Shown here: positions 19,964 to 62,923 of the stretch, one piece after another
Layout: the number at the start of each line of letters is the position of its first letter
Position numbering within the stretch: position 1 is the first letter of the stretch
Origin: Candidatus Micrarchaeota archaeon
GTDB taxonomy: Archaea; Micrarchaeota; Micrarchaeia; Micrarchaeales; Micrarchaeaceae
Assembly (NCBI GenBank): GCA_021848125.1
Contig: JAJZMY010000019.1
Location: 13,054 to 77,053, forward strand
Length of the DNA stretch: 64,000 nt
Reading direction: 5' to 3'
The notes under the pieces: model-generated
Seen by the model: only the letters and a program-made list of their open reading frames with translations
What the model was told of the DNA's origin: nothing
The model's database searches: none
Program-made: the position numbers and the translations under genes

Positions 19964-21349
19964 ATGGATAAATTATTCGGATCAAATGGAATAAGGGGCA
20001 TTGTGAATAAAGATCTGACTCCTAGCTTTGTTTTAGATATAAGCAGAGCTATTGGCACATATTTTGGCAAGAATAAAAAAATTTTAATCAGTAGGGATTA
20101 TAGATTTGGCGGAGAATTTCTAGAGAAAATGGCTGAAAGCGGATTATTAATATCAGGGATTGAGGTTTTTGAATCAGACCCAGTACCAATACCAGCGCTG
20201 CAATTCTGTATAAAAACAATGCAATTTGATGGAGGGATAATGATTACTGCAAGCCATAACCCATATCAATTTAATGGCATTAAGGTTATTGGCCAGAATG
20301 GCATTGAGTTAGAAAGAAAAGAAGAAGAAAAAATTGAAAAAATATTTTATAATAAAAGCTTTTCAAACTTGAATTTTAATGAATTAAAATATAATGTCAA
20401 AAAACAAGTCAATATAATTTCAAATTATGTTAATGCTGTTTTATCAAATATCAATAAACAAAAAATTCGTTCCAAAAGATTTAAGGTCTTAATAGATCCT
20501 ATTAATAGCGTTGGTGCAATAACGTCTTCTTTGATAGCAAGAGAGCTTAATTGCAAAATATATTGGACTAATAAAGAGCCAAACCCTTTATTTCCAGAAA
20601 GACAGCCAGAGCCGAATCCAGATACACTGACAAAAACAGCCAGGATTGTCAAATCGCTGAAAGTTGATCTCGCAATTGCACATGATGCCGATGCTGATAG
20701 AATTATTTTTATTGATAACAAAGGCAGAATTCAATTCGGAGACAGAAGCGGAACATTAATTGCAAAACACTTATGCAAAAAATTAAAAAACAATTTAAAT
20801 AATAATAAAATAAGCAAAAAAGTCATTACTGCTGTTTCAAGCTCAGTTTTAGTGGAAGAATTTTTAAATAAATTAGGCATTGATGTTGTTTGGACAAAAG
20901 TGGGTGCGCCAACAGTTTCCCACGCATTATTAAAACAAAACGGTTTATGCGGATTTGAAGATAATGGCGGTTTTTTATTTCCAATGCATCAATATGTAAG
21001 AGATGGCGGAATGACATTTGCATTAATGCTGGAATTATTATCTGATTCAAATTCAACATCATCACAATTATTTGATACTCTTCCAAAATATTACCCGATA
21101 AAAACAAAAATACCAATAACAAATAATTTTGATTTAAACCTTATTGAAGCAAAAATTAAAAAAGATTTTAAATCAAAAATAAAAAAAGTAATAAAAATTG
21201 ATGGGCTAAAAATAATAGGAGATGATTTTTGGTTTTTAATCAGGAAAAGCGGTACAGAATCAATAATCAGAATAATGGCAGAAGCAAAAGATAAAAATCA
21301 TGTTGAATCAATTGTAAAAAATTTAAAGCAGATAATATCGGGCTCGTAG
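19964..21349 (+). CDS. phosphohexomutase (phosphoglucosamine/phosphomannomutase family)
   Basis: FGSNGIRG, the active-site motif TASHNP, the metal loop AHDADADR, and the C-terminal RKSGTE are all present. Confidence 0.85.
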   Translation: MDKLFGSNGIRGIVNKDLTPSFVLDISRAIGTYFGKNKKILISRDYRFGGEFLEKMAESGLLISGIEVFESDPVPIPALQFCIKTMQFDGGIMITASHNPYQFNGIKVIGQNGIELERKEEEKIEKIFYNKSFSNLNFNELKYNVKKQVNIISNYVNAVLSNINKQKIRSKRFKVLIDPINSVGAITSSLIARELNCKIYWTNKEPNPLFPERQPEPNPDTLTKTARIVKSLKVDLAIAHDADADRIIFIDNKGRIQFGDRSGTLIAKHLCKKLKNNLNNNKISKKVITAVSSSVLVEEFLNKLGIDVVWTKVGAPTVSHALLKQNGLCGFEDNGGFLFPMHQYVRDGGMTFALMLELLSDSNSTSSQLFDTLPKYYPIKTKIPITNNFDLNLIEAKIKKDFKSKIKKVIKIDGLKIIGDDFWFLIRKSGTESIIRIMAEAKDKNHVESIVKNLKQIISGS

Positions 21350-21456
21350 CTCAGCTTGGATAGAGCAATAGCGTCCTAAGCTAAAGGTCGCGGGTTCAAA
21401 ATAAACTTCTTTTTAAGAAGTTTAATCAAGAAGTTATGAAAATCCCGCCGAGCCCG
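21340..21456 (+). tRNA. tRNA-Arg (anticodon CCU) with a 42-nt non-canonical intron in the T-loop
   Basis: I folded this by hand. Acceptor stem: GGGCTCG (21340-46) pairs with CGAGCCC (21449-55), with discriminator G. D-arm: GCTC/GAGC. Anticodon stem: ATAGC/GCTAA with one mismatch, loop GTCCTAA, anticodon CCT at 21375-77. T-stem: GCGGG (21390-94) pairs with CCCGC (21444-48). The T-loop TTCAAA..T is interrupted by about 42 nt (about 21401-21442). A T8 run follows the 3' end. Confidence 0.75.
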
Positions 21457-25954: not shown

Positions 25955-27316
25955 ATGGTTATGGGATCAATTCCGGAAAATGTTGATGTTGCTGTTGTTG
26001 GGGGTGGACTTGGGGGATATATATCTGCAATACGCGCCTCACAATTAGGTTTAAATGTTGTGCTTGTTGAAAAGCATAAGCTTGGAGGACACTGCTTGAA
26101 TTATGCCTGCATTCCTTCAAAAACATTAATACATATTTCTGATATTTTATACAATGCAAAAAATTCTCAAAATTTTGGCATTAATGCATCGGATATTTCA
26201 ATAGATGCAAAAAAAATGTATGAATATAGAATTAATGTATCAAAGAAATTAGAGCAGGGCGTGGAATTTTTATGCAAATCTAATGATATTGAAGTAATTA
26301 AAAGCGAGGCAACATTTTTATCCTCTAATAGCTTACAAGTATCAGATGGAATAAAGATTAATTTCAAAAAAGCAATTATTGCAACTGGCTCTGAGCCAGT
26401 TGAGCTTAAGGGTTTTGAATTCAATAATATTAATATATTGGATTATAAAAAAGCATTATCATTGGATAAGATTCCAGAATCAATTGCAATAATAGGCGCT
26501 GGATTTGTTAGTATTGAAATAGGTACATTATATGCAAAATTAGGTTCAAAAGTTTCAATAATCTCACGAAGCGATATACTGTCAAATTTTGATCCTGATG
26601 CTGTTGCTATTATTAAAAAAAGAATGCAGATTCTTAATATAAATATTTATACAAATTCTACTCCAGTTTCTTATAAAGATAATGTCCTGGAGCTGAATAA
26701 TGGATCAAAAATTATTGCTGAATTAATAGTTGTTTCGATTGGAATGTATCCATATACGCAAAATCTGGGCCTTGAAAATACAAAAGTCCAGACTGATAAA
26801 AAAGGCTTTGTTATAACTGATAATAAACTTTATACAACTGATGAGAATATTTTAGCTGTTGGCGATGTGATTGGGCAGCCGATGCTTGCGCATAAAGCAA
26901 TAAGGCAGGGTATTGTAGCAGGAGAATCAGTAAAATCTCCTGCATTTTTTGACAATATTGTTATTCCATATGTAGTATTTTCAGATCCGGAAATTGCAGT
27001 TGCAGGCGATATTAAGACAAGTTCATTGAAAATTGCTAAATTTCCTTTAACTGCATTGGGGAGAGCAATTGCATTTAATAGAACAGATGGATTTGTAAAA
27101 ATTGCTTATAATGAAGATAATATAGTAAAAGGAATTGAGATTGTATCAGAAGATGCAAATGCATTAATTAGCGAGGCAGCATTAGCAATTGAGATGGGTG
27201 CTACCCTAGAAGATATTGCAGATACAATACATCCTCATCCAACATTTGCAGAGTCAATCCAGGAAGCAGCAGAAATAGGGCTTGGAAGGCCAGTGCATTT
27301 TTTTATTAAAAAATAA
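25955..27316 (+). CDS. lpdA: dihydrolipoyl (dihydrolipoamide) dehydrogenase
   Basis: FAD motif VVGGGLGGY, redox-active disulfide GGHCLNYACIPSK, NAD motif IIGAGFVSIE, and the C-terminal HPHPTFAES interface motif. Confidence 0.85.
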   Translation: MVMGSIPENVDVAVVGGGLGGYISAIRASQLGLNVVLVEKHKLGGHCLNYACIPSKTLIHISDILYNAKNSQNFGINASDISIDAKKMYEYRINVSKKLEQGVEFLCKSNDIEVIKSEATFLSSNSLQVSDGIKINFKKAIIATGSEPVELKGFEFNNINILDYKKALSLDKIPESIAIIGAGFVSIEIGTLYAKLGSKVSIISRSDILSNFDPDAVAIIKKRMQILNINIYTNSTPVSYKDNVLELNNGSKIIAELIVVSIGMYPYTQNLGLENTKVQTDKKGFVITDNKLYTTDENILAVGDVIGQPMLAHKAIRQGIVAGESVKSPAFFDNIVIPYVVFSDPEIAVAGDIKTSSLKIAKFPLTALGRAIAFNRTDGFVKIAYNEDNIVKGIEIVSEDANALISEAALAIEMGATLEDIADTIHPHPTFAESIQEAAEIGLGRPVHFFIKK

Positions 27317-27338
27317 AACTCTTTAAAAAAGAGTTTTA
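27314..27338. terminator. 8-bp perfect hairpin starting at the lpd stop codon; degenerate relative of the palindromic repeat family
   Basis: TAAAACTC (27314-21) pairs with GAGTTTTA (27331-38) across a 9-nt loop. A/T runs follow. Confidence 0.4.
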
Positions 27339-27395
27339 TCAGAAAAAAATAAAATAAATAAAAAAAATAAAAATTAGAAATAAATTAAAAAAATA

Positions 27396-28241
27396 ATGAT
27401 AAAAATGAAGATGTATTTGGATTTATTAAGATTTGTTGAATCTAATAATAAAAAATTATTCTGCATTTATTGCGGGACAGAAACTTATGTGCTTAATAAT
27501 ATTGGAATTTGTTCAAATTGCGAAAATATAATCAGTTTGCCTAGCAGTGTATTGATAAAACAGGATCCTGAAGCAGTTTCGAAAATATCTGCAATTAATG
27601 AAAAATTATCCAATCAAAACATAACTGAAACTGACTTTGAAGAAGCAATAAAAATATATGATGAATTAATTGCAAAGAAAAACAATCTTGGTTATTTATA
27701 TGCAAAGGCATTGCTGCTAATCAAATATTCAAATTATCTGATAAACCAGATTAATTATAATAAACAGGGTTTTATGGATGAAAATTCAGAACTTAATGAA
27801 AAATCAATTAAGCTAGTATCAGATTCAAAACTTCTTTTATATAAAATAATTTCTACATGCAATGCCAATATCAATAGCAATATTAATTCATTTAATGAAA
27901 TTTATTTGATGTTTTTGGCAAATATTAAACTAAATAATTTTAAGGCAGCACAAAGCTCACTTAATCTAATAAAGAATTTTAATGAAATTTTTATTTTAGA
28001 ATATAGCCAATTAATTTTTAATATTGCAATAAAAAATTATGAAAATGCAACAAATAATGCAAAAAACTTGCTGATGCATGATAATTTTTCAATAAATGCC
28101 CTGTTCTATTATTCATTTGTATTATTCAATAAAAAAGAGTTCAAGCAAAGCAAGAATATATTACAACAACTGCAAAAATATATTAAAAATGATAATATAA
28201 AAAATTTAATTCAGGATATAGCAATAAAACAAAACCTATAA
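27396..28241 (+). CDS. hypothetical protein: N-terminal zinc ribbon plus helical-repeat (TPR-like) body
   Basis: CIYCGTE..CSNCEN is followed by about 230 aa of helical-repeat-like sequence. The likely start is ATG 27405. Confidence 0.4.
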   Translation: MIKMKMYLDLLRFVESNNKKLFCIYCGTETYVLNNIGICSNCENIISLPSSVLIKQDPEAVSKISAINEKLSNQNITETDFEEAIKIYDELIAKKNNLGYLYAKALLLIKYSNYLINQINYNKQGFMDENSELNEKSIKLVSDSKLLLYKIISTCNANINSNINSFNEIYLMFLANIKLNNFKAAQSSLNLIKNFNEIFILEYSQLIFNIAIKNYENATNNAKNLLMHDNFSINALFYYSFVLFNKKEFKQSKNILQQLQKYIKNDNIKNLIQDIAIKQNL

Positions 28242-28281
28242 TAAAATTAAAATAAAGTAAGTATTAGCAATTGACAAATAA

Positions 28282-28374
28282 AAATAAAGCTTTTGGAAAA
28301 AGATTTTGCAAAATGAAAAGTCTGCAGAATTCAGCAGCAAACCTGCTGAAGCTTTTGCAAAATGCAAAAAATAG
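28282..28374 (+). repeat. palindromic intergenic repeat, long form (copy 1)
   Basis: Sequence: aaataaagcttttggaaaaagattttgcaaaatgaaaagtctgcagaattcagcagcaaacctgctgaagcttttgcaaaatgc. It contains an AAAGCTTT-type arm and the hairpin TTCAGCAG/CTGCTGAA (28330-50). It lies 3' of gene 27396..28241. Confidence 0.75.
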
Positions 28375-28938
28375 TTGATTAAAATGGAACTGAAAAGAAA
28401 AACAAGCACATTTAATTTTAATTTAAATTTAAATTATAAAACCTTAAAACAAATTTATTCGTTAAAAATTATTATATTGAATATTGGTATTTTTGTATTA
28501 TTCTACTTTATTTTCAACTTTTTTATAAAATACCAAAATAGAGGGGTATTTTTAATTAATGTTCCTCTTTATATTATATATCTTGCAATAGCAACTTCCT
28601 CAATATTAACTTCAATTAGCATTGCAACAGTATTAAAAACAATTAGAACAAAATCAGCAATTGCCGGCGTAGGATTCGGGACATTTACAAGCGTTTTAAG
28701 CGGAATAATCACTGGATGCGGATGTTCTTTTCCATTATTGATTAGTATTTTTAGCCTATTTGGGCTAAATTCAACATATGCATTATTTTTTAATACTTTT
28801 TTTGTAAATAATGCGTTTTTTATATTATTTGCAATTAGCATTATTAATATACTAACAATTGTTTATCTGATTGGCCAATTTAATAATAAGATTAATTGCA
28901 AAATCAAAAGCAGCAAATCTTTAAATAAAAAAGTTTAA
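28375..28938 (+). CDS. small integral membrane protein with a GCGC motif
   Basis: About four hydrophobic segments, with the motif IITGCGCSFPLL in the third. Confidence 0.45.
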   Translation: MIKMELKRKTSTFNFNLNLNYKTLKQIYSLKIIILNIGIFVLFYFIFNFFIKYQNRGVFLINVPLYIIYLAIATSSILTSISIATVLKTIRTKSAIAGVGFGTFTSVLSGIITGCGCSFPLLISIFSLFGLNSTYALFFNTFFVNNAFFILFAISIINILTIVYLIGQFNNKINCKIKSSKSLNKKV

Positions 28939-28975
28939 ATAAAATATAAAATAAATTAAAAGATATGATATTATT

Positions 28976-30184
28976 ATGAAAAAGCAAAAAAAAGGAATTA
29001 TTAAAAATTATAACAAAACTAAAAAAATAAACAAAATCAGCAATAAACAAATAAGAAAATCTTATTCAAAACTACAAAAACATAAACTAGAAAATATACT
29101 AAAGCACCAAAAAGAAACAAGAAAAACTAAGCAAAACAACATTATAAATTTAAAGGATGTCACTATAAACAATATTGGCTCAAATATTTTAATTGAAGAA
29201 ATTTTAATAAATAAATTGATAATCAGCAAGCAAAATAAGAGCTACAAAAATAAAGTCAATGAATATTTTTCTGAAAATTCAATGCTGTTAAAAAATTTAA
29301 TAATAAATTTTACAGGCACGCTATCAAAATTAAATTATAAAAATGGATTATTTGCAGGTAAACTATTATACCACGCATATAATAAAATATACAATTATGC
29401 TTCATATAATGATGCCCTATGGCATTTAATTGAATTTTTAGAATCATGTGGGTATAAAAATATTGTCTTCACGTCCTTTCCAGACAAGATAACAATAAAA
29501 ATACCAAATATTAAACAGGATTTAAATCTAAATACCCATGTATTTGAAGCAGGGCTGATCTCTGGATTCATAACTGCATCAAAAAATAAATTATTATTTG
29601 CTAAAGAGGCAAAATGCTCAAATAATAATTCTGATTTTTGCGAATTTATTTGCGATGAATATAATAATTATAATGATTTTAGGACAAATAGCCAAAATAT
29701 TGACAAATCCATTGAAAAATTCATAGAATCTTATTTAAGGGACCTAAACAGAAATAAAAGAGATGCAAAAACCAAGATAAATTATTCTGCCAATATCTAT
29801 CCTGAATCATATTATTATTTATCATCATTTCCAATAATTTTTAATAATAAACTAAATAATTATATGAAATTAATATTTACTCATATTGCAATCAAGTTCA
29901 ATCAAAACTTATTAAAGGAATTTAAAACCATAACTAAAAAAAATCAGAAAAATCTGTTTGAACAAATTCAGCAAATATTAGGTTTATTAGACATAACAGT
30001 AACAATTAACAGCTTAAAGCCACTAAATATTTCTTTAATGTTCAATTATTTAAATTCAAAAAAAGAATTCATTGACTTATCCATAATATTTTTTAATAAT
30101 CTGGCAAATGGATATATAAATACTAAAAATACAGCAACACAATTAAAAAACATTAATGGAAAATATATTTTAACTATCTCATAA
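28976..30184 (+). CDS. hypothetical protein with a V4R-like domain and a lysine-rich N-terminus
   Basis: HVFEAGLISGFITAS....AKEAKCSNNNSDFCEFIC resembles the V4R (4-vinyl reductase) C-terminal pattern G.l.G...E..C...G...C.F. Confidence 0.4.
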   Translation: MKKQKKGIIKNYNKTKKINKISNKQIRKSYSKLQKHKLENILKHQKETRKTKQNNIINLKDVTINNIGSNILIEEILINKLIISKQNKSYKNKVNEYFSENSMLLKNLIINFTGTLSKLNYKNGLFAGKLLYHAYNKIYNYASYNDALWHLIEFLESCGYKNIVFTSFPDKITIKIPNIKQDLNLNTHVFEAGLISGFITASKNKLLFAKEAKCSNNNSDFCEFICDEYNNYNDFRTNSQNIDKSIEKFIESYLRDLNRNKRDAKTKINYSANIYPESYYYLSSFPIIFNNKLNNYMKLIFTHIAIKFNQNLLKEFKTITKKNQKNLFEQIQQILGLLDITVTINSLKPLNISLMFNYLNSKKEFIDLSIIFFNNLANGYINTKNTATQLKNINGKYILTIS

Positions 30185-30408
30185 TTATTTGTTAATATGA
30201 ATGTTTATGTAAAAATCATATTAATAAATATCATTAGCTAAGCAATAACAAATGTAAAAAACATACTAATAAAAAATCTCACTAAATAATAAATACTTTA
30301 TTATTAAAAATAAAAAATAGAATAAAACAGAATAATAAAAAAATGCAAAATACGCATTAAAAGTATTACCTTAAAAATCTAAAATTGTAAATAAATTACA
30401 TACTTCGT

Positions 30409-31869
30409 GTGAAAATTATGGCATTAGAATTTATGGATAAAGTTTCTAAATTTATTCCGTCAATAAAATCCCCAAAGACGCCATTGTCTTTAAAGGAAAA
30501 ATTATATTGGACAGGCATTGTGCTTGTTGTTTATTTTCTTCTTTATAATACATATGCAATAGGCGTTAACCAGGCAGAAGTAACAAATCCTTTATTTGAA
30601 TTAATAAGCATTATATTTGCTGCAAAAATAGGCAGCCTGATAACAATTGGAATCGGCCCCATTGTATTGGCAAGCATTCTGCTTCAATTGTTTAATGGAG
30701 CTGGGCTGATAAAATTTGATTCAAGTAATCTTGAGGAAAAATCAAGGTTTCAGAGCCTTCAGAAATTATCAGCAATTGTTTTAGGGGTTATTGAAAGTTT
30801 TATATTTGTATTTACAGGTTATATTCCAATTTCCAGCCCATCAGCTGCCGGCTTTGTCATCATTCAATTAATAATCGGCGCAATAACAATTATTTTTTTG
30901 GATGAAATAATGACAAAATGGGGGATAACATCTGGAATAAATATGTTTATTGCGTCTGGGGTTTCATATGATATTATTGCAGGAACTTTTGGAATTTTAT
31001 TGCCAGGCGCAATAACTGCAATAGAAACAGGAGGTGCAACAGCAATTTCTGGAGCTGTCCTGGCATTTGCCCCTTTGTTCTTTTCAGTCATTGTTTTTTT
31101 AATAAGTATTTATGCATATGAAATAAAAGTTGAGCTGCCCCTAGTTTTTGAGCAGTTGAGAGGCATCGGCGGCAGACTGCCAATACCTTTCTTATATGTG
31201 AGCGTTTTGCCTGTAATCCTGGCAACTTCCCTGGAAATGAGTCTGACAGTATGGTTTAGAATGCTGGCAAATATAAAAGGAGCTTTTGCTAATTTTGCCA
31301 AATTTATTGCATTTTATCAGCCAGTGAATGGCCAACTGCAGCTGAATGGCGGACTTGTTTATTTAATTTCACCCTCATTTCCATTGCCTTATCCAGCGCC
31401 AGCCGGCATCGGCGGCTATAGGCAGTATTTCACATACCTGGCAACGCATACAACGCAATTGTTTCTGCCGTTCGGTGGATTTGTCAATGTTCCCGAGTGG
31501 ATTCATATCATTGTTTATACTCTGGTTCTAGTAGTGCTTTGTATTGTATTCGGTAAGTTCTGGATTGAAATGACTGGCCAGAATCCAAAAAGCGTTGCAG
31601 ATCAATTGCAGTCAGTGGGCTGGCAGATACCAGGATTCAGGAGGGACCCTAGAATTATTGAAAACGTGCTCAACAAATACATACCAACAGTCACTGTGCT
31701 CGGAAGCATTTTTGTCGGCCTCCTGGCAGCATTTGCAACATTGACCGGAGCCCTGGGAACTGGCATGGGGATTTTATTGACAGTTGGAATTATTTACATG
31801 CTGTACCAGCAATTAGAACAAGAGCATCTTTATGAAGCCTATCCAATACTGGAAAAGATTGCAAAATAA
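30409..31869 (+). CDS. secY: preprotein translocase subunit SecY
   Basis: About 10 TM segments with archaeal SecY/Sec61alpha hallmarks: KLYWTGIVLVVY, GIGPIVLASILLQL, GIPGFR..P. The likely start is ATG 30418. Confidence 0.9.
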   Translation: MKIMALEFMDKVSKFIPSIKSPKTPLSLKEKLYWTGIVLVVYFLLYNTYAIGVNQAEVTNPLFELISIIFAAKIGSLITIGIGPIVLASILLQLFNGAGLIKFDSSNLEEKSRFQSLQKLSAIVLGVIESFIFVFTGYIPISSPSAAGFVIIQLIIGAITIIFLDEIMTKWGITSGINMFIASGVSYDIIAGTFGILLPGAITAIETGGATAISGAVLAFAPLFFSVIVFLISIYAYEIKVELPLVFEQLRGIGGRLPIPFLYVSVLPVILATSLEMSLTVWFRMLANIKGAFANFAKFIAFYQPVNGQLQLNGGLVYLISPSFPLPYPAPAGIGGYRQYFTYLATHTTQLFLPFGGFVNVPEWIHIIVYTLVLVVLCIVFGKFWIEMTGQNPKSVADQLQSVGWQIPGFRRDPRIIENVLNKYIPTVTVLGSIFVGLLAAFATLTGALGTGMGILLTVGIIYMLYQQLEQEHLYEAYPILEKIAK

Positions 31870-31975
31870 AGCTCTTTAGAAAAGAGCTTTTGCAGAAATA
31901 AAGCTTTTAGAAAAAGCTTTTGCAAAATGAAAAGTTTGCAGAATCCAGCAGCTTTGCTGCTGAAGTTCATTAAAA
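31866..31975 (+). repeat. palindromic intergenic repeat, long form (copy 2)
   Basis: It starts at the secY stop. It has hairpins AAAGCTCTT/AAGAGCTTT (31868-90), AAAGCTTTT..AAAAGCTTT (31900-20) and CAGCAGC/GCTGCTG (31946-62). The segment tgcaaaatgaaaagtttgcagaat is shared nearly verbatim with copies 1 and 3. Confidence 0.8.
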
Positions 31976-32005
31976 AATAAATTAAAAACAAATATGTGAA
32001 ATCTA

Positions 32006-34495
32006 ATGGATCAAAAAAATACTAATAAAAACAATGAAATTAAAAATATTGAATCAGAGACAAAAAAATTGGAAGAAGAAATTGAAAAGCAGAAGCAGAG
32101 ATTAGAGCAGGAATATTCAAAAATATCAAAAGAAACAAGCAAATTAAAATCAGATGAAAGAAAATTAGAGCAGGAAATTGAAACGCAGGACAAAGAAGAT
32201 GAAAAAAACCAATTTGTTAAATTTATTACATCTCTTGAAAAGAATAAATATTTTATTTTGTCAATCGCAATAATAATTGTTTTAATTGGCATTTATCTGA
32301 GAGTTGGAATGCTAAAATATCAGGGCCTTTTTGAACCCGATGGATTTTTCCACTATTCTGTGCTGCAGCAGATTGTTTCAAATCATTTTATTGAACCAAT
32401 AAATACAAGTTTGTCAGGTTTTCCAGCTCCTCATTATATTGAAGAGCCTGATGGGCTTTACTATGTCACTATTATCCTGTATTTTTTCCTTAGATTTTTT
32501 GGAATAAGCTTATACAGCCTAATGAGGATTATTCCTGTTTTGTTTGGAATCAGCGATATAATAGGCAGTTTTTTCCTAATAAGATTTTTTTCAAAAAATA
32601 ATTATTTGTCTTTATTAGGTATGTTTTTTGTTGCTGTTTCAAATGGCGATATTGCAAGAACCGCAGCATTAGTATACAGAGGGGATGGATTCATAACTAT
32701 TTTTATGATAATAACATTAATTTTAATGCTAAAAACACTTGAATCAAAAGACAAAAAAAGATATTTTTATGCTATTGGCACAGGAATTATATCTGGAATA
32801 GGTATAGGAATATGGAACGGATCCCCTTTTACTCTCCTTGTTTTTATTCTTGCCATGATATTTATCATTATTTATTCCTTTTTGATTGCTAATAAGGATT
32901 ATTTATTTAATACTATTTTGCTTACTTTTGCTGTTTTGCTTTCCCACATTGTCCAGGATCTGCTTTACAGATTAACAATAATTCGTGTAACACTGCCATT
33001 CACTGACTGGCATTTTTATATATTTTTCATGCCATTGTTGATTTTCTCAATTCTTGCATATTATTTAATAAAGAGCAGCAAACTGAAATTAATCACGCAT
33101 AATTTCAAAAACAGACTTTTGTTTACTGTTATTATAATCCTAGTTGCATCATTGGTTATTATATCAATATTTTATAATTATCTTGCATTTGCTTCAACTG
33201 GCTATGGAATGCTAAGCAGGAACAGCGCACTTGGTGTAACTATTGAAGAGTTGCTGCCACCAACATATGCATTTATATTTGCAAGCTTTTATTACCAGCT
33301 TTATCTTGCGCCGTTTGCAATTATATTATTTTTAGGAATTTTTATTTTTATTAAAATATATAATAAATATTATTCTACATCTCCAAAATTAAGTTTCAAA
33401 AGCATTGACAAAAATTATTTAGGTGATTTATCTGTATCTGCATTTCTTATAATTTTATCCTATTTCTTATTGACTTCTTATTTGCAGTCAACAGCAATAA
33501 GATATAATTCATTGGTTTCAATTCCAATTGCATTATTTTCAGCATATGCAATTTACTTAATAAGCGCACTTGTCTATAAATTATTTAAGAAGATATTGAC
33601 ATCAAATGTGAACTTGAAATATTATGCATTTATTGTTTATGTTTTTATCTTGTTTATTTTCTTTTATAATTCTTTTAATTTCTCGCATGCACAGGCATAT
33701 TCATCAACGCAGGCAGATGACATAAATCCATTATTTTTAAATGCAATGACATGGCTGAGGGCTAATACACCACAAAATTCAACTGTATTGGCTTTATGGC
33801 CTGACGGCTCTGTTGTTGAAGGATGGGGCCATAGAAGAAGCTTAATGGACAGCGTCAGCGGGCAAATAGCATCAAATATATATCCATTTGCCAAATTTGT
33901 ATTTAATCAAACCAATAACCAAACATATCTTTTTTCAATTCACAGACCAAATTATTTAGTTGTGAGATATTTCTGGTTTTATGAACTTGGAGGCATTGCG
34001 CAAGAGGCAAAATTAAATATAAGCAATCCGGCTGTTTCCTCCAACTACAGCTATGTAATGATGAATTCTCTTAATATAACTAAAAACAGCACATCAATAA
34101 ATTATTTATTCAGCTCTAATAACTTTGATGTAAAATTTATTACAGAACCGACTGCAAACGGAACAAAGTTTGCAGCCTATCTTTTGCAGCCAAGGATAGC
34201 TCCGCAGCCAATTAAAACAATTATTTTTTACAATGAAACAAATAAAAATTATTCAATTGTAAATTCATCAGTTCCTTCTTTAAATTTCAGTCTCCTGATT
34301 TATTATTCAGGGCATAATATTTATGGCGGTGCAATTGTAGGCCCAAAGCTTTTAAAATCAAATATGTTCAAGTTTCTGATTTTATGCAATTATGTTGAAT
34401 GTCCATATAATGGCAATAATGTCACTTTAAATCTAGTTTATGCAAATAATGATACAAGAATTTATAAGATAAATTATCTTAATTCATCAACATAA
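32006..34495 (+). CDS. aglB: AglB/STT3-like oligosaccharyltransferase with an N-terminal Glu/Lys coiled-coil extension
   Basis: Many TM segments are followed by a soluble C-terminal domain. The first-loop motif LFEPDGFFHYS resembles STT3 E.DP.F.Y. A WWDYG-like motif appears as ALWPDGSVVEGWG. A different GT-C family enzyme cannot be excluded. Confidence 0.6.
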   Translation: MDQKNTNKNNEIKNIESETKKLEEEIEKQKQRLEQEYSKISKETSKLKSDERKLEQEIETQDKEDEKNQFVKFITSLEKNKYFILSIAIIIVLIGIYLRVGMLKYQGLFEPDGFFHYSVLQQIVSNHFIEPINTSLSGFPAPHYIEEPDGLYYVTIILYFFLRFFGISLYSLMRIIPVLFGISDIIGSFFLIRFFSKNNYLSLLGMFFVAVSNGDIARTAALVYRGDGFITIFMIITLILMLKTLESKDKKRYFYAIGTGIISGIGIGIWNGSPFTLLVFILAMIFIIIYSFLIANKDYLFNTILLTFAVLLSHIVQDLLYRLTIIRVTLPFTDWHFYIFFMPLLIFSILAYYLIKSSKLKLITHNFKNRLLFTVIIILVASLVIISIFYNYLAFASTGYGMLSRNSALGVTIEELLPPTYAFIFASFYYQLYLAPFAIILFLGIFIFIKIYNKYYSTSPKLSFKSIDKNYLGDLSVSAFLIILSYFLLTSYLQSTAIRYNSLVSIPIALFSAYAIYLISALVYKLFKKILTSNVNLKYYAFIVYVFILFIFFYNSFNFSHAQAYSSTQADDINPLFLNAMTWLRANTPQNSTVLALWPDGSVVEGWGHRRSLMDSVSGQIASNIYPFAKFVFNQTNNQTYLFSIHRPNYLVVRYFWFYELGGIAQEAKLNISNPAVSSNYSYVMMNSLNITKNSTSINYLFSSNNFDVKFITEPTANGTKFAAYLLQPRIAPQPIKTIIFYNETNKNYSIVNSSVPSLNFSLLIYYSGHNIYGGAIVGPKLLKSNMFKFLILCNYVECPYNGNNVTLNLVYANNDTRIYKINYLNSST

Positions 34496-43381: not shown

Positions 43382-43450
43382 ATGATAAAATATAATATCA
43401 ATTTAAATACTTTAATTATTTAATAAAAATAGCAATTAAAATCTTTAAAA

Positions 43451-43487
43451 AATAAGGCTCTTAAAAAAAGCTTTAGCAAAAATAAGC
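43451..43487 (+). repeat. palindromic intergenic repeat, short degenerate form
   Basis: Sequence: aataaggctcttaaaaaaagctttagcaaaaataagc. It lies 3' of truD. Confidence 0.5.
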
Positions 43488-43509
43488 AAAATAAAGAAAA
43501 AAGATAAAA

Positions 43510-53976: not shown

Positions 53977-54023
53977 ATGAATAATAAAGCTTTTAAAAAA
54001 AGCTTTGGCAAAAATCAAAAAAT
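53977..54023 (+). repeat. palindromic intergenic repeat, short form
   Basis: Sequence: atgaataataaagcttttaaaaaaagctttggcaaaaatcaaaaaat. It lies between the convergent 3' ends of 53369..53974 and 54031..55194. It is near-identical to the copies at 59.2 kb and 60.65 kb. Confidence 0.8.
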
Positions 54024-59109: not shown

Positions 59110-59226
59110 TTTTTGCAAAAGCTTTTTTTAAAAGCTTTATTTCTGCTAAAGCTTCAGCAGGTTTGCTGCTGAATTTTGCAAACTTTTCATTTTGCCAAAG
59201 CTTTTTTTAAAAGCTTTATTATTCAT
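59110..59226 (-). repeat. palindromic intergenic repeat, long form (copy 3, inverted orientation)
   Basis: The reverse complement reads atgaataataaagcttttaaaaaaagctttggcaaaatgaaaagtttgcaaaattcagcagcaaacctgctgaagctttagcagaaataaagcttttaaaaaaagcttttgcaaaa. It fills the 150-nt gap between paralogs 5 and 4. Confidence 0.8.
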
Positions 59227-60674
59227 ATTAAATTTGTATTCAAAGCTTTTGTCAGCCCCATTGCAAATCCAATGACAATTGCAAAATCAATTCCCAGCAT
59301 AAAAAATACAGTGAATTCAAATTGCGCAATTTCATTAACAAGGTTTAATAAATCCTGAATAACTATATTCGGATCAATAATTGACCAAATCACATTGCCT
59401 GTTACTGCTGTTGAAAGAATTTGATCTATTGACGGCAATCCTATTCCAAGAATTGTTGCTGACGCTGTCGGGTTGCCTGCGAATAAGGAGCTGGATGGTA
59501 TTTTATTCAATAAATATGTTGAATGCAAATAAGTATACGAAGGGTTTTTCGAGCTGAATATCCAGTGAATTGCCCATGCATTAAAAACAATTGTTAATGG
59601 CAGTATAAGGTAAAAGGCAATTGCCAAGGCAAGAAATGCATTTGCTGCTGATTTCAAGCCAACACTTTGCGCAGCTGCGCCTCCTCCCCCAAAACCAGAA
59701 TAAGCAATCATTCTAAGAACCAATGCAACTGGCAGCACAACAGTAAAAGCAACAAACTGTATAACAGGCAGAATCAGCCATAATAAATACAGCAAGCCAA
59801 TAGCCATAATTACAAGAGGAGCAAAAATTGAAAGCAGCAAATCGCTTAAAATATTGTATGATGCTCCCAAATCATAGCCAGTTGAAAATTGGACAGACAA
59901 TGAAAAAGGCCCTAATGAAGTAGCTGCAGAAATACTTGAAGATAGTGCAGAAGTTAGAACTGAACTTGCTGAAGCAATAACATTAAACAGCAACTGGCCA
60001 ATATTTGAAAATATCATTGAATCAATATTAAAGCCTATTGCATAAGTATAAATCTGGATCAACAGTTTAATTCCAACAGAATTTGATAAATTTCCAATAT
60101 AATAATCAGCAAACTGAAAAGGATTGCTTGCAGGAACAGGATATGTTCCAGTGCTTAAAGAACTTCCAATTGAGCTTGTTATTTTGCATGCACTTGTAGT
60201 AAAGGTAAGAAGCAGCATAAGTATTGCAGCGCTTATTATTACCTGGATTAATTCTATTTTTGTGATTTGCGTGAATTTTTCCCTTTCCCTTGCTGAAATA
60301 AATCGTGATGCCATATAAATAAATGAAATAACAAGCAGGCTTACTATTAAGACATATAAATTTATCCACATCCAGTTATTGTAATTTCCAGTGCTTGTTC
60401 CCCCAAATAAACTGCACGACTGTATGCTCGGGCCTGTACTTGTTGGCGCAGGAGATGAAGCAGGGATTGCTGTCGCTCCGGCAGCATTAATATTCATGAA
60501 TACAGATAAAAACAAAACAGCAATAAAGCCAATCAAAATAAAAAATGATTTTTGGTTTTTTATTTTTTTATTATTTATTAAATTAGTTTTAGTGCTTTTG
60601 CGCATGCTCATTCTGTATTTATTTTTTTGATTTTTGCCAAAGCTTTTTTTAAAAGCTTTATTTATATTATTCAT
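59223..60674 (-). CDS. polytopic membrane protein, member 5 of the paralogous family (divergent loop motif)
   Basis: S/T/P-rich segment ATAIPASSPAPTSTGPSIQSC. FIYMAS, linker KIELIQVIISA, and a degenerate motif LRMIAYSGFGGGGAAAQ. The first 21 codons (MNNINKAFKKSFGKNQK..) are read from a copy of the palindromic repeat. Met22 or Met24 (60611 or 60605) may be the real start. Confidence 0.65.
   Translation of the reverse strand: MNNINKAFKKSFGKNQKNKYRMSMRKSTKTNLINNKKIKNQKSFFILIGFIAVLFLSVFMNINAAGATAIPASSPAPTSTGPSIQSCSLFGGTSTGNYNNWMWINLYVLIVSLLVISFIYMASRFISAREREKFTQITKIELIQVIISAAILMLLLTFTTSACKITSSIGSSLSTGTYPVPASNPFQFADYYIGNLSNSVGIKLLIQIYTYAIGFNIDSMIFSNIGQLLFNVIASASSVLTSALSSSISAATSLGPFSLSVQFSTGYDLGASYNILSDLLLSIFAPLVIMAIGLLYLLWLILPVIQFVAFTVVLPVALVLRMIAYSGFGGGGAAAQSVGLKSAANAFLALAIAFYLILPLTIVFNAWAIHWIFSSKNPSYTYLHSTYLLNKIPSSSLFAGNPTASATILGIGLPSIDQILSTAVTGNVIWSIIDPNIVIQDLLNLVNEIAQFEFTVFFMLGIDFAIVIGFAMGLTKALNTNLI
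60628..60674 (-). repeat. palindromic intergenic repeat, short form (inverted), overlapping the annotated 5' end of paralog 5
   Basis: The reverse complement reads atgaataatataaataaagcttttaaaaaaagctttggcaaaaatca. Confidence 0.75.
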
Positions 60675-62053: not shown

Positions 62054-62277
62054 ACTTAATTTTATTTAGTAATACTTTAATAACTTTCTTTTAAAAATTG
62101 ACTCTCTAATTTTGGAAAGTCTTTTGAAATTAGTACCATATTAATTTAATGCAATGAATTTTTTTAAATTTATTTATAAATTGCCTTTGCAGCATTTTTT
62201 ATTTTTTTAATTGAAGTATCTATATTATCATTTAAATTTTAGAAAAAATGCAATTTAAATAAACAAAAGATTTTTAA

Positions 62278-62923
62278 ATGTATAATAAAAACAAGAGAGC
62301 AAAAAATAAAGGCTGAAATAGAAGATAAAGTCATTGAGGCAATATTTTCTATAACGGATAAAGCAGCATTTCATGGAGGCACATGTGTTTGGAGATGTTA
62401 TGGTGGAAAGAGATTCTCACAGGATATTGATATCTATGTGTGGGACAGAAACCTGGAATATAAATTAAAAGAATCGTTGGAAAAGGTTGGATTAAATGTT
62501 CTTAAGTATAGATTTAAAGAACATATAATTTTTATACATGTCTCTCTATTGAATGCGGAGCAATTTGAAGTAAAGATAGAAATAAACAATAAAAAAATTG
62601 AAAATTTTATTGTTGTATTTTATGAAACAGTTAGTGGACGGGGCATGCAGATAAATAATTTATCTGATGAGGATCTAGTTCTAGAAAAGATAAACGCATA
62701 TAATAATCGAAGATTACATAAAGATTTGTATGATATTACAATATTACTAAACAGCATTGCAAATTCTGCACATATAAATAGTGCTTTGACAAAATTTATA
62801 AGTGCTATCGCTCCTCCAAAAGATGCATATATTGAATTTAAAGCTACAATTTATTCTGGGTCTATTTCATCATTTGGTAGTATGATAGATTTAATAAAAA
62901 GATGGATAAAACAAAATAGATGA
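62278..62923 (+). pseudogene. AbiEii-like nucleotidyltransferase (toxin-type), reading frame broken near an A5 run
   Basis: The frame holding the NTase motif (AAFHGGTCVWRCYGGKRFSQDIDIYVW) is open from 62243. It has no ATG, GTG or TTG before GTG 62438, which lies after the catalytic motif. ATG 62278 is in a different frame and stops after 12 codons. Deleting one A from the run at 62287-62291 would fuse them into MYNKTREQKIKAEIEDKV... Confidence 0.5.

What the first reader, a model, noticed from the sequence alone, without database searches (positions are those of the whole stretch)
28282..31975. Family of AAAGCTTT-centred palindromic intergenic repeats (7 copies), always at gene 3' ends
A composite element recurs seven times.

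- **Long forms:** 28282-28374, 31866-31975 and, inverted, 59110-59226.
- **Short forms:** 53977-54023 and, inverted, 60628-60674. These two and the right end of the 59.2-kb copy share ATGAATAAT(A)AAAGCTTTTAAAAAAAGCTTTGGCAAAA almost exactly.
- **Degenerate relatives:** 43451-43487 and 27314-27338.

The modules are one or two hairpins built on the self-complementary AAAGCTTT (which contains an AAGCTT palindrome), a conserved spacer TGCAAAATGAAAAGTYTGCAGAAT, and a GC-rich hairpin. That hairpin is TTCAGCAG-caaac-CTGCTGAA in two copies and CAGCAGC-ttt-GCTGCTG in the third, so the stem is kept while the loop differs.

Every copy starts at or a few nt after a stop codon (lpd, ORF 27396, secY, truD, the HAD phosphatase, paralog 5, paralog 6). 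Three of the seven sit in or at the edge of the six-paralog block. They could be structured terminators or RNA-stability elements, a REP/MITE-like mobile repeat, or protein-binding sites.
Basis: seen in the sequence. Interest (0 to 1): 0.62.

Follow-up and report, generated by a model that had tools for sequence, protein, structure and literature searches.

The report
Modular hairpin repeats in a Micrarchaeota genome
The repeats are real: a tiny acid-mine archaeon (Micrarchaeota) carries tens of copies of a small, modular hairpin-forming DNA repeat that sits between genes, often on top of the stop codon, always pointing the same way as the genes. It behaves like the small REP/MITE-type mobile repeats of bacteria rather than like a dedicated terminator, and its units also turn up inside tRNA introns.

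Summary
Observation confirmed.

The basic unit is about 30 nt: AAT + a perfect 9-12 bp A/T-rich hairpin (AAAGCTTTT-NNN-AAAAGCTTT and co-varying variants) + a tail (T/G/A)GCA(A/G)AA. Units stand alone or in direct tandem arrays of 2-4. The "long form" adds a degenerate half-unit and a GC hairpin.

The window is from an acid-mine-drainage Micrarchaeota genome (27% GC).

- **Abundance:** read depth and 20 kb of extra sequence indicate tens of copies, including arrays after rpoB, rpoA' and EF-1alpha.
- **Lineage-specific:** there are none in 20 kb of a sister species (SecY 89% identical). Its secY-aglB spacer is 47 nt, against 136 nt here.
- **Dynamic between strains:** a 79-nt module is present or absent between strains, and patch conversions, including a hairpin-loop flip, lie within otherwise identical DNA.
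- **Oriented:** all 10 loci point the same way as the upstream gene. In 5 of 10 the stop codon lies in or against the hairpin foot; the other copies lie 5-80 nt away.
- **In tRNA introns:** the tRNA-Arg intron in the window contains a unit, and the same 28-mer sits in tRNA-Trp and tRNA-Gly introns of other DPANN contigs.

Best reading: a REP/BIME- or MITE-like repeat tolerated only in the orientation that lacks T-runs.

The parts
27313..27339 (+). Unit G: ATAAAACTCTTT-aaa-AAAGAGTTTTAT (12-bp perfect stem) plus tail CAGAAAAAAAT. The lpd stop codon TAA (27314-27316) lies inside the hairpin foot.
   Evidence: 46.5 bits
28284..28313 (+). Unit A: TAAAGCTTTT-gga-AAAAGATTT plus tail TGCAAAA. The one arm mismatch (GATTT) reads GCTTT, a perfect stem, in strains L145, L148 and L149.
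28314..28329 (+). Half-unit M2 of long form A (GAAAAGTCTGCAGAAT), a degenerate copy of right arm plus tail.
   Evidence: comparison by eye with AAAAGCTTTTGCAAAAT
28330..28362 (+). GC hairpin M3 of long form A (TTCAGCAG-caaac-CTGCTGAA), followed by the half-unit GCTTTTGCAAAA.
31868..31899 (+). Unit B1: AAAGCTCTTT-aga-AAAGAGCTTT plus tail TGCAGAAAT. The secY stop TAA (31867-31869) overlaps the first two bases of the stem. The stem variant carries a compensatory CT/AG insertion.
31900..31927 (+). Unit B2: AAAGCTTTT-aga-AAAAGCTTT plus tail TGCAAAA. This is the 28-mer 'M1' that recurs in other DPANN contigs.
   Evidence: 52 bits
31928..31962 (+). M2 half-unit (TGAAAAGTTTGCAGAAT) and GC hairpin CAGCAGC-ttt-GCTGCTG (31946-31962). 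In strains L145 and L146 the same hairpin reads CAGCAG-caaac-CTGCTG.
43454..43481 (+). Unit F, degenerate: AAGGCTCTT-aaa-AAAAGCTTT plus tail AGCAAAA. It sits in the truD-sdhA spacer, where the sister species carries an extra 269-aa gene.
   Evidence: 48.2 bits
53986..54013 (+). Unit D plus tail GGCAAAA, between the convergent 3' ends of the HAD-type nucleotidase gene and paralog 1. On the opposite strand it reads as a T7 run.
59142..59220 (-). The 79-nt block of long form C (unit C1, M2 and GC hairpin 59153-59173). It is absent from strain L158 (GCA_023380775.1). The boundaries are ambiguous within the 24-nt direct repeat AATAAAGCTTTTAAAAAAAGCTTT.
59111..59141 (-). Unit C2 (AAT + AAAGCTTTT-aaa-AAAAGCTTT + TGCAAAA), present in all strains, 38 nt upstream of the paralog 4 start.
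   Evidence: 54.2 bits
60632..60659 (-). Unit E plus tail GGCAAAA, 20 nt upstream of the in-frame ATGAGC. It lies inside the N-terminus that ORF callers give paralog 5.
   Evidence: 52.8 bits
21401..21442 (+). 42-nt intron at position 59/60 (T-loop) of tRNA-Arg(CCU). It contains a family-type hairpin TAAACTTCTT-ttt-AAGAAGTTTA (21402-21424). The intron junctions form a strict 3-4-3 bulge-helix-bulge: UUCA:UGAA, with bulges AA|A and AA|U.
   Evidence: 36.1 bits; the sequence was in the training set

Best explanation
This is a lineage-specific family of small modular palindromic DNA repeats, working like bacterial REP/BIME or MITE-type elements.

**Unit.** About 30 nt: AAT, a perfect A/T-rich hairpin with one or two G:C pairs, and a tail (T/G/A)GCA(A/G)AA. 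A second module is a GC hairpin.

**Shown.**
- Units have been copied to many intergenic sites.
- They form direct tandem arrays.
- They are absent from the same sites in a sister species.
- They gain or lose whole modules between strains by recombination between units.
- They exchange short patches between copies, including a flipped hairpin loop.

**Inferred.**
- Spread and homogenisation act on the DNA hairpin, through an unidentified hairpin-recognising enzyme or through recombination and template switching.
- Copies survive only where they do no harm: in transcribed spacers in the orientation that has no run of five or more T (the archaeal termination signal), right at or after a TAA stop codon (the element's own 5' end, AATAAAGC, supplies a TAA), and in the apical loop of tRNA introns.
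- Once in place, the hairpin is transcribed as part of the mRNA. It may secondarily protect the upstream 3' end or slow termination at the stop codon.
- On the opposite strand it offers a T5-T7 terminator to antisense or convergent transcription.
For: **Real and repeated.** 8 sites against 0.09 expected. Logan contigs of independent metagenomes break at the repeats. Depth there is 54-88 times the single-copy level for the AAAGCTTTT hairpin and 8-17 times for the spacer module.

**Copies outside the window, same species.** Three units follow rpoB, four follow rpoA' and three follow EF-1alpha.

**Covariance-model census.** 17 strong matches (at least 46 bits) in the three loci of this species, which overlap each other. 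There were none in 20 kb of the sister species or 21 kb of a relative with 74% SecY identity.

**Empty site.** The sister species has a 47-nt secY-aglB spacer without any unit. Here the spacer is 136 nt, and its last 40 nt or so are still alignable.

**Strain polymorphism.** A 79-nt block is bounded by two identical 24-nt unit sequences. There are 2-6 clustered differences inside repeats A and B, while the flanks are 100% identical. These include TTTG to AAAC in the GC hairpin loop and repair of a stem mismatch.

**Hairpin kept by compensatory change.** 93.9% of cells are paired, 7 of 14 pairs change on both sides, and 0 of 500 shuffles reach this.

**Orientation.** All 10 loci are co-oriented with the upstream gene, and every strong model match lies on the gene strand.

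**T-run asymmetry.** The sense strand of co-directional spacers avoids T-runs genome-wide: T5 or more in 9 of 34 spacers, against A5 or more in 26 of 34. Spacers with units have a maximum T-run of 3-4.

**Intron colonisation.** A relative's tRNA-Arg(UCU) has an intron at the same 59/60 site with the same UUCA:UGAA helix, but only a 13-nt apical hairpin. The family unit is therefore a later addition.

**Spread beyond this lineage.** The same 28-mer is found in intergenic spacers and in tRNA-Trp and tRNA-Gly introns of Woesearchaeota-like and other DPANN contigs.
Against: - No mobilising enzyme was found.
- No target-site duplication or terminal inverted repeats could be shown.
- No GTAG/CGTC tag as in REPs. 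Clusters are direct, not inverted as in BIMEs/REPINs.
- Within the species every locus is occupied in every strain. No fresh insertion at a new site was seen, only module gain or loss at an occupied site.
- The 28-mer is identical in distant DPANN lineages and at orthologous sites whose flanks have diverged. That could equally mean purifying selection for a function.
- The covariation set was partly chosen by looking for hairpins, which inflates pairing.
Confidence: 0.6

Rival explanations
1. The hairpins are primarily functional RNA elements at gene 3' ends. As part of the mRNA, they would protect the upstream cistron from 3' exonucleases, act as terminators, or, by pairing the stop codon into the stem, slow translation termination. 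E. coli REPs do the last when they lie within 15 nt of a stop codon.
For: - The stop codon lies in or directly against the hairpin foot at lpd, secY, rpoB, rpoA' and EF-1alpha, and in about 10 of 20 intergenic copies in other DPANN contigs.
- Orientation is strictly with the gene.
- The stem is kept by compensatory changes.
- The 28-mer is conserved at orthologous sites whose flanks diverged.
- Precedent: REPs within 15 nt of a stop stall ribosomes (PMC12306157, citing Liang et al. 2015).
Against: - Three of seven window copies are 44-80 nt from the stop and closer to the next start.
- The sister species does without them at the same genes.
- Arrays of 3-4 different hairpins, a 79-nt indel and patch conversion are not expected of a tuned signal.
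- No T-run follows the hairpins in the sense direction, and they sit inside the RNA polymerase operon.
- The M1 hairpin is weak: -7.3 kcal/mol at 37 C, z about -2.
- The same unit sits in tRNA introns, where none of these roles applies.
Confidence: 0.2
2. The units are dispersed tRNA-intron sequences, or substrates of the tRNA splicing endonuclease. Intergenic copies would be cut out of, or cut, polycistronic RNA at bulge-helix-bulge motifs. New tRNA introns would arise when a unit lands in a tRNA gene.
For: - Units lie in the tRNA-Arg 59/60 intron here, and in 37/38 introns of tRNA-Trp and tRNA-Gly elsewhere.
- Other community members have AACTTCTT-type hairpin introns at 37/38 of tRNA-Arg.
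- About 15-20% of the M1 hits in metagenome contigs are tRNA-associated, far more than the share of intron DNA among non-coding sites.
- The tail motif AUGAAAA, shared by the intron and the long forms, supplies the UGAA that pairs with the universal T-loop UUCA.
- Micrarchaeota have a broad-specificity epsilon2 endonuclease and many non-canonical introns (PMC3239211). [quoted passage not shown]
Against: - By inspection, no 3-4-3 or near bulge-helix-bulge can be drawn around the intergenic units. The four bases after the stem (UGCA or UCAA) have no partner three bases upstream of it.
- In the introns the motif is made by exon-intron pairing, and the unit is only the apical decoration.
- The 59/60 intron of tRNA-Arg predates the unit.
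- No reverse transcriptase or other RNA-to-DNA route is known here.
Confidence: 0.08
3. The palindrome is a DNA site for a protein. One possibility is a symmetric BRE/TATA-like promoter read by the half-size (homodimeric) TBP of this genome. Another is an operator for a dimeric regulator. Either would drive or control the downstream gene.
For: - AAAGC-TTTTAAAAA resembles an A/T-rich TATA element.
- In many DPANN contigs the tail ends 9-30 nt before the next ATG.
- In the window, unit E ends 20 nt and unit F 28 nt before a start.
Against: - Loop variants AGA and GGA put G in the middle of the supposed TATA.
- Stems change sequence by double substitutions and paired insertions while keeping complementarity. 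That fits a folded strand, not a fixed protein site.
- Unit D has no downstream gene.
- Units occur in tRNA introns and in tandem arrays.
- Many genes here have a GGTG Shine-Dalgarno-like leader and other TATA-like boxes.
Confidence: 0.05
4. The repeats encode small basic peptides (MNNKAFKKSFGK..., MKSLQNSAANLLKL...) or supply N-terminal coding sequence.
For: - One frame is open across each long form.
- Three copies start with ATG.
- Gene callers predict 43-48-aa ORFs over some arrays and start paralog 5 in unit E.
Against: - Unit-to-unit spacing is 32, 33, 35 and 32 nt, not a multiple of three.
- Compensatory stem changes and the loop flip change the peptide freely: SAANLLK against PAALLLK.
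- Copies A and B lack an upstream ATG for the KAF part.
- The open frame follows from A-rich, stop-poor DNA copied as DNA.
- Copy D's frame runs antisense into paralog 1.
Confidence: 0.03

Closest known systems
Bacterial REP / BIME / REPIN elements (E. coli, Pseudomonas; mobilised by RAYT, a Y1 HUH transposase)
   Same: - Short (about 20-35 nt) palindromic units in tens to hundreds of copies.
- Extragenic, inside transcription units and close to stop codons.
- Clustered into composite arrays with other motifs.
- Species-specific, and homogenised between copies.
   Different: - No GTAG/CGTC tag.
- Very A/T-rich perfect stems.
- Clusters are direct tandems, not inverted pairs.
- Strict co-orientation with genes.
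- No RAYT found in the DNA that could be read.
- The host is an archaeon.
- Units also occur in tRNA introns.
Prokaryotic MITEs and other small mobile repeats (Correia/NEMIS of Neisseria, RUP/BOX of Streptococcus, Sulfolobus SM1-4; high MITE densities reported for Altiarchaeum and a Woesearchaeon, PMC11602168)
   Same: - Non-coding and multi-copy.
- Presence/absence between close relatives.
- Can supply stop codons or regulatory signals to neighbouring genes.
   Different: - The unit is a single hairpin of about 30 nt, not a 100-400-nt element with terminal inverted repeats.
- No target-site duplication is visible.
- No parent insertion sequence is known.
IS200/IS605-derived palindrome-associated elements (PATE) and their subterminal hairpins
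   Same: - Hairpins in direct orientation at both ends of long form C.
- A conserved short word (AAT) immediately 5' of the hairpin.
- Strand bias.
- No inverted termini and no duplication.
   Different: - Arrays of more than two hairpins.
- No TnpA/TnpB nearby.
- Cleavage and guide sequences were not identified.
Archaeal bulge-helix-bulge tRNA introns and 'intron transposition' (Thermoproteales, ARMAN-2; Fujishima et al. 2010, 2011)
   Same: - The same hairpin sequences occur in introns of different tRNAs and at different positions (59/60 and 37/38).
- The host lineage is known for many non-canonical introns.
   Different: - The intergenic copies lack the splicing motif.
- In introns the unit is only the apical part.
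- At tRNA-Arg the intron is older than the unit.

Membership tests
REP / BIME (RAYT-associated) | Short imperfect palindrome, high copy number, extragenic | tested here: met
   - Hairpin of 21-27 nt.
- 8 sites in 64 kb.
- Depth 54-88 times single copy.
- All intergenic apart from one copy in a tRNA intron.
REP / BIME (RAYT-associated) | Conserved GTAG or CGTC tetranucleotide at one end of the palindrome | tested here: not met
   The 5' flank is AAT and the foot is (T)AAAGC. No GTAG/CGTC appears in any unit.
REP / BIME (RAYT-associated) | A RAYT (TnpA_REP, Y1 HUH) gene in the genome, usually flanked by REPs | not testable with these tools
No such Pfam family appears among genes called on about 105 kb of this species.
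REP / BIME (RAYT-associated) | Clusters made of units in alternating (inverted) orientation | tested here: not met
   All units of every array are in the same orientation.
MITE | Terminal inverted repeats flanked by a target-site duplication | tested here: inconclusive
   - The unit is itself a palindrome.
- No duplication is recognisable at the secY site when compared with the sister's empty site.
- The A/T-rich flanks make short duplications undecidable.
MITE | Presence/absence polymorphism between close relatives | tested here: met
   - Sister species lacks the 96-100-nt array after secY.
- No unit in 20 kb of the sister species.
- 79-nt block missing in strain L158.
Archaeal BHB intron | hBHBh' motif (3-nt bulge, 4-bp helix, 3-nt bulge) at the junctions | tested here: met
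   This applies to the tRNA-Arg intron only. The motif is GCGGG/CCCGC, UUCA:UGAA, bulges AA|A and AA|U, and inner helix UAAaCUUCUU/AAGAAGUUA. Removal gives the T-loop UUCAAAU. Drawn by hand on the sequence; the fold is.
Archaeal BHB intron | The same motif around the intergenic units | tested here: not met
   The four bases after the stem (UGCA, GGCA or UCAA) have no complement placed three bases 5' of the stem in units A-G or in the rpoB unit. By inspection.
Intrinsic terminator (hairpin plus U-run) / archaeal oligo-T terminator | Run of five or more T after or in the element on the transcribed strand | tested here: not met
   - Sense-strand maximum T-run is 3-4 in all seven spacers with units.
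- The run is T5-T7 only on the opposite strand.
- Exception: the TTTTCTTT-type unit ends in T5.
Any Rfam RNA family | Match to a curated covariance model | tested here: not met
   No match at gathering score in the whole window, and none at E up to 1 in 27200-32100.

The most novel reading that the evidence does not exclude
The hairpin units are the raw material of tRNA intron turnover in DPANN archaea.

A unit whose tail carries AUGAAAA brings a UGAA that pairs with the universal T-loop UUCA. Insertion after position 59 would then create a cleavable bulge-helix-bulge by itself. More generally, these repeats enter, enlarge and move between tRNA introns and intergenic spacers. That would give 'intron transposition' a concrete DNA vehicle.
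Probability: 0.12. Interest if true: 0.8.

Novelty: new variant of a known kind. Interest (0 to 1): 0.5.

Why it matters
**A repeat family in an unexpected host.** Small palindromic repeats are well described in bacteria and hardly at all in DPANN archaea. These genomes are among the most compact known and are usually thought to hold little repetitive DNA. Here a repeat family makes up a visible share of the intergenic DNA, including inside the RNA polymerase operon and on the stop codons of secY, lpd, rpoA' and EF-1alpha.

**Practical effects on annotation.** The repeats break metagenome assemblies. They also mislead gene callers, which predict spurious 43-48-aa ORFs over the arrays and extend the N-terminus of paralog 5.

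**Link to tRNA introns.** The same short sequence occurs in intergenic spacers and in tRNA introns of several DPANN lineages. This is the unusual part. If pursued, it could bear on the unsolved question of how archaeal tRNA introns are gained and moved.

Tried and rejected

**Scan of genome contigs with the bare hairpin.** The hairpin alone is a generic palindrome, found once each in many A/T-rich bacteria. It did turn up a tRNA-Gly intron copy (L104).

**RNA evidence.** Three metatranscriptomes of the same study hold none of this organism. One read-laying run was lost to a filter.

**Viral contigs.** No match to M1 or to the spacer.

**Rfam.** No family matched.

**Bulge-helix-bulge around intergenic units.** Not found by inspection.

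**Box C/D or K-turn reading of AUGAAAA...CUGA in the long form.** The terminal stem needed next to the GA pairs cannot be drawn, so this was dropped.

**BRE/TATA reading of AAAGC-TTTTAAAAA.** Dropped because of G in loop variants and because the stems co-vary.

**secY C-terminus encoded by an older unit.** I first thought ATTGCAAAATAA was such a remnant. The sister species shows homologous codons (ATCGTCAAAGAGTAA), so it is native sequence.

**Strand preference from folding energy.** None: z-scores are similar on both strands.

Full report
**Organism and setting.** The window is 24-36% G+C, mostly about 27%. It encodes archaeal SecY, AglB/STT3, TruD, SdhA and Lpd. SecY homologues are named Micrarchaeales / Micrarchaeaceae. 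The DNA is found at 0.91-0.98 word share in acid-mine-drainage, mine-tailings and sediment metagenomes. Everything beyond the window therefore comes from exact-protein look-ups of neighbouring contigs, one metagenome pattern scan and read or contig laying.

All seven copies are at the stated coordinates.
- The hairpin pattern with up to 2 mismatches gives 8 sites against 0.09 expected.
- The spacer gives 3 sites against 0.01 expected.
- A census of perfect hairpins of 8 bp or more shows no general excess in the window: 38 against 21-34 in Markov shuffles. The family members are the ones with a 3-nt loop and G/C in the stem.

**Anatomy.** The repeating unit is about 30 nt: AAT, a perfect hairpin, and a tail (T/G/A)GCA(A/G)AA(A)T that runs into the next unit.
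- Stem variants are AAAGCTTTT/AAAAGCTTT, AAAGCTCTTT/AAAGAGCTTT, AAAACTCTTT/AAAGAGTTTT, GAACTTCTT/AAGAAGTTC and AAAGCTTTTCTTT/AAAGAAAATTTTT.
- Loops are AAA, AGA or GGA.
- The 'conserved spacer' of the long forms is a degenerate right arm plus tail.
- The GC hairpin is a second module.
- On 25 units, 93.9% of cells pair and 7 of 14 pairs change on both sides. No shuffle reaches this, and slid partners drop to 43-73%. The caveat is that many units were picked as hairpins.
- Folding energy is modest (M1 -7.3 kcal/mol) and alike on both strands.
- No Rfam family matches.

**Copy number and spread in the genome.**
- Contigs of independent runs end at the repeats.
- Summed depth at 31910 is 482, 1372 and 1389, against single-copy depths of 8.9, 15.6 and 25.7. 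At 28313-28327 it is 8-17 times single copy. These are upper bounds, since relatives in the community add to them.
- Ten kb upstream of the window, three units follow the rpoB stop and four follow rpoA'. Ten kb downstream, three follow EF-1alpha.
- A covariance model built from the units finds 17 matches of 46-55 bits in the loci of this species, all on the strand of the flanking genes.

**Position.**
- All ten loci are intergenic and co-oriented with the upstream gene.
- Nine lie between co-directional genes and one (D) between convergent 3' ends.
- The stop TAA is part of the hairpin foot at lpd, secY, rpoA' and EF-1alpha, and abuts it at rpoB.
- The stop is 5 and 11 nt away at paralog 5 and the HAD-type gene, and 44-80 nt away at three others.
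- So 'always at gene 3' ends' is half right. The firm rule is orientation.
- Co-directional spacers of this genome avoid T-runs on the sense strand: T5 or more in 9 of 34, A5 or more in 26 of 34. Every spacer with units has at most T4 on the sense strand, while the opposite strand reads T5-T7.
- Oligo-T is the usual archaeal termination signal (established knowledge), and a T8 follows the tRNA-Arg here. I therefore infer that reversed copies would terminate operons and are lost.

**DNA-level dynamics.**
- Across ten contigs of the same species the flanks are 100% identical, but repeats A and B carry 2-6 differences.
- In two strains the loop of GC hairpin B reads CAAAC, as in copy A, instead of CTTTG.
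- In three strains the mismatch in the arm of unit A is repaired to a perfect stem.
- Strain L158 lacks 79 nt of long form C, bounded by two identical 24-nt unit sequences.
- The sister species (SecY 89% identical, 32.6% G+C) has a 47-nt secY-aglB spacer with no unit, and no family hairpin in 20 kb. A relative with 74% SecY identity has none in 21 kb.
- The family therefore expanded in this lineage, or was lost from the sister. Its copies recombine and convert one another.

**tRNA introns.**
- The only tRNA seen in about 84 kb is tRNA-Arg(CCU), with a 42-nt intron at 59/60. Its junctions form a strict 3-4-3 bulge-helix-bulge, and its inner part holds TAAACTTCTT-ttt-AAGAAGTTTA. This is the same stem as the unit after rpoB.
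- Depth over the intron hairpin is 7-12 times single copy in two runs.
- Other community members carry AACTTCTT- or AAGCTTCTT-type hairpin introns at 37/38 of a like tRNA.
- The 74% relative has tRNA-Arg(UCU) with a 20-nt intron at the same site and the same UUCA:UGAA helix, but only UGCA-cagaa-UGCA at the apex. The intron is therefore older, and the unit is a later occupant.

**Beyond this lineage.** A scan of JGI/ENA metagenome contigs for the 28-mer AAAGCTTTTNNAAAAAGCTTTNGCARAA gave 27 loci.
- Most are 28-33% G+C contigs from groundwater and lakes.
- One contig's nearest named relative is a Woesearchaeon at 48% identity.
- There the 28-mer sits in the 37/38 intron of tRNA-Trp (two lineages) and of tRNA-Gly(UCC), directly after a tRNA 3' end, and in short spacers of co-directional genes such as rps13-rps4.
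- In about 10 of 20 intergenic copies the upstream stop is 2 nt before the hairpin or overlaps its first 2 nt. The next ATG often follows 9-30 nt after the tail.
- A GTDB archaeal MAG has the same tRNA-Gly intron.
- At orthologous sites the 28-mer is identical while the flanks differ.
- No copy was found in viral contigs.

**Interpretation.**
- Copying as DNA is certain. Three long forms share more than 90% identical 50-80-nt blocks, and three short forms share a nearly identical 37 nt.
- Lineage restriction, module gain and loss, conversion patches and perfect but varied stems all fit a REP/BIME- or MITE-like element acting through the DNA hairpin.
- The strict orientation fits selection against T-runs, and does not by itself require an RNA function.
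- An added RNA-level role at stop codons, as shown for E. coli REPs (PMC12306157), remains possible. I give it 0.2 as the primary explanation.
- Endonuclease processing, promoter and mini-ORF readings are less likely, for the reasons listed under the rivals.
- The link to tRNA introns is real, but at tRNA-Arg it runs from repeat to intron.

**Limits.**
- No RNA data for this organism.
- No whole-genome search, so the mobilising enzyme and the true copy number are open.
- The covariation sample is partly selected.
- Depth-based copy numbers include relatives.
- The earlier AI notes on other Micrarchaeota genomes describe similar repeats. I used them only as leads.

Noticed in passing
window 21340-21456; L162 (minus strand, T-arm at about 15319 on the reverse complement): tRNA-Arg(CCU) has a strict 3-4-3 bulge-helix-bulge intron at 59/60. 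A relative at 74% SecY identity has tRNA-Arg(UCU) with a 20-nt intron at the same site and the same UUCA:UGAA helix, so this non-canonical intron is old within Micrarchaeales. Neither ARAGORN nor Rfam at E up to 0.1 finds the tRNA.
   Followed up: partly
window 59223-60674 (minus): The start that ORF callers give paralog 5 (MNNINKAFKKSFGK...) lies inside repeat unit E. The likelier start is the in-frame ATGAGC about 63 nt downstream, 20 nt after the unit's tail.
   Followed up: partly
L164/L165 14025-14834 (sister species), against window 43382-43509: The sister species has a 269-aa metallo-beta-lactamase-fold gene (Pfam Anti-Pycsar_Apyc1, Lactamase_B_2) between truD and sdhA. The window species lacks it and has only a 128-nt spacer with the degenerate unit F.
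   Followed up: no
L158 8957-9996, against window about 62243-62923: Strain GCA_023380775.1 has an intact 190-aa AbiEii (PF08843) gene where the window has a 161-aa ORF with no Pfam hit. Its paralog 6 is 377 aa instead of 437 aa.
   Followed up: no
L036, L044, L073 (one 'Methanobacteriota archaeon' MAG) and L059 (Methanosarcinales MAG): The same AAAGCTTTT-NNN-AAAAGCTTT hairpin, with a different conserved tail (GATGCAAAA) and conserved flanks, occurs on three contigs of one 40-42% G+C MAG. This may be another repeat family built on the same palindrome.
   Followed up: no
L127 9552-9590 and L135 2884-2922: Tandem 13-nt period GCTTTTGCAAAAA. It shows that M1 is built from alternating A-run, GC and T-run blocks, and that TTTTGCAAAA is itself a perfect palindrome.
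   Followed up: no
window, upstream of many starts (e.g. 709, 1717, 5708, 10206, 13512, 15748, 34665, 35072, 42080, 45314, 53369): GGTG/GGTGA Shine-Dalgarno-like words lie 5-9 nt before the ATG of many genes, so this organism seems to use leadered mRNAs widely.
   Followed up: no
L154 4179-4319 and L001 17938-18069: Gene callers predict 43-46-aa ORFs. The L154 ORF lies over the repeat array after rpoB and is probably spurious. The L001 ORF was not compared with the repeats.
   Followed up: partly
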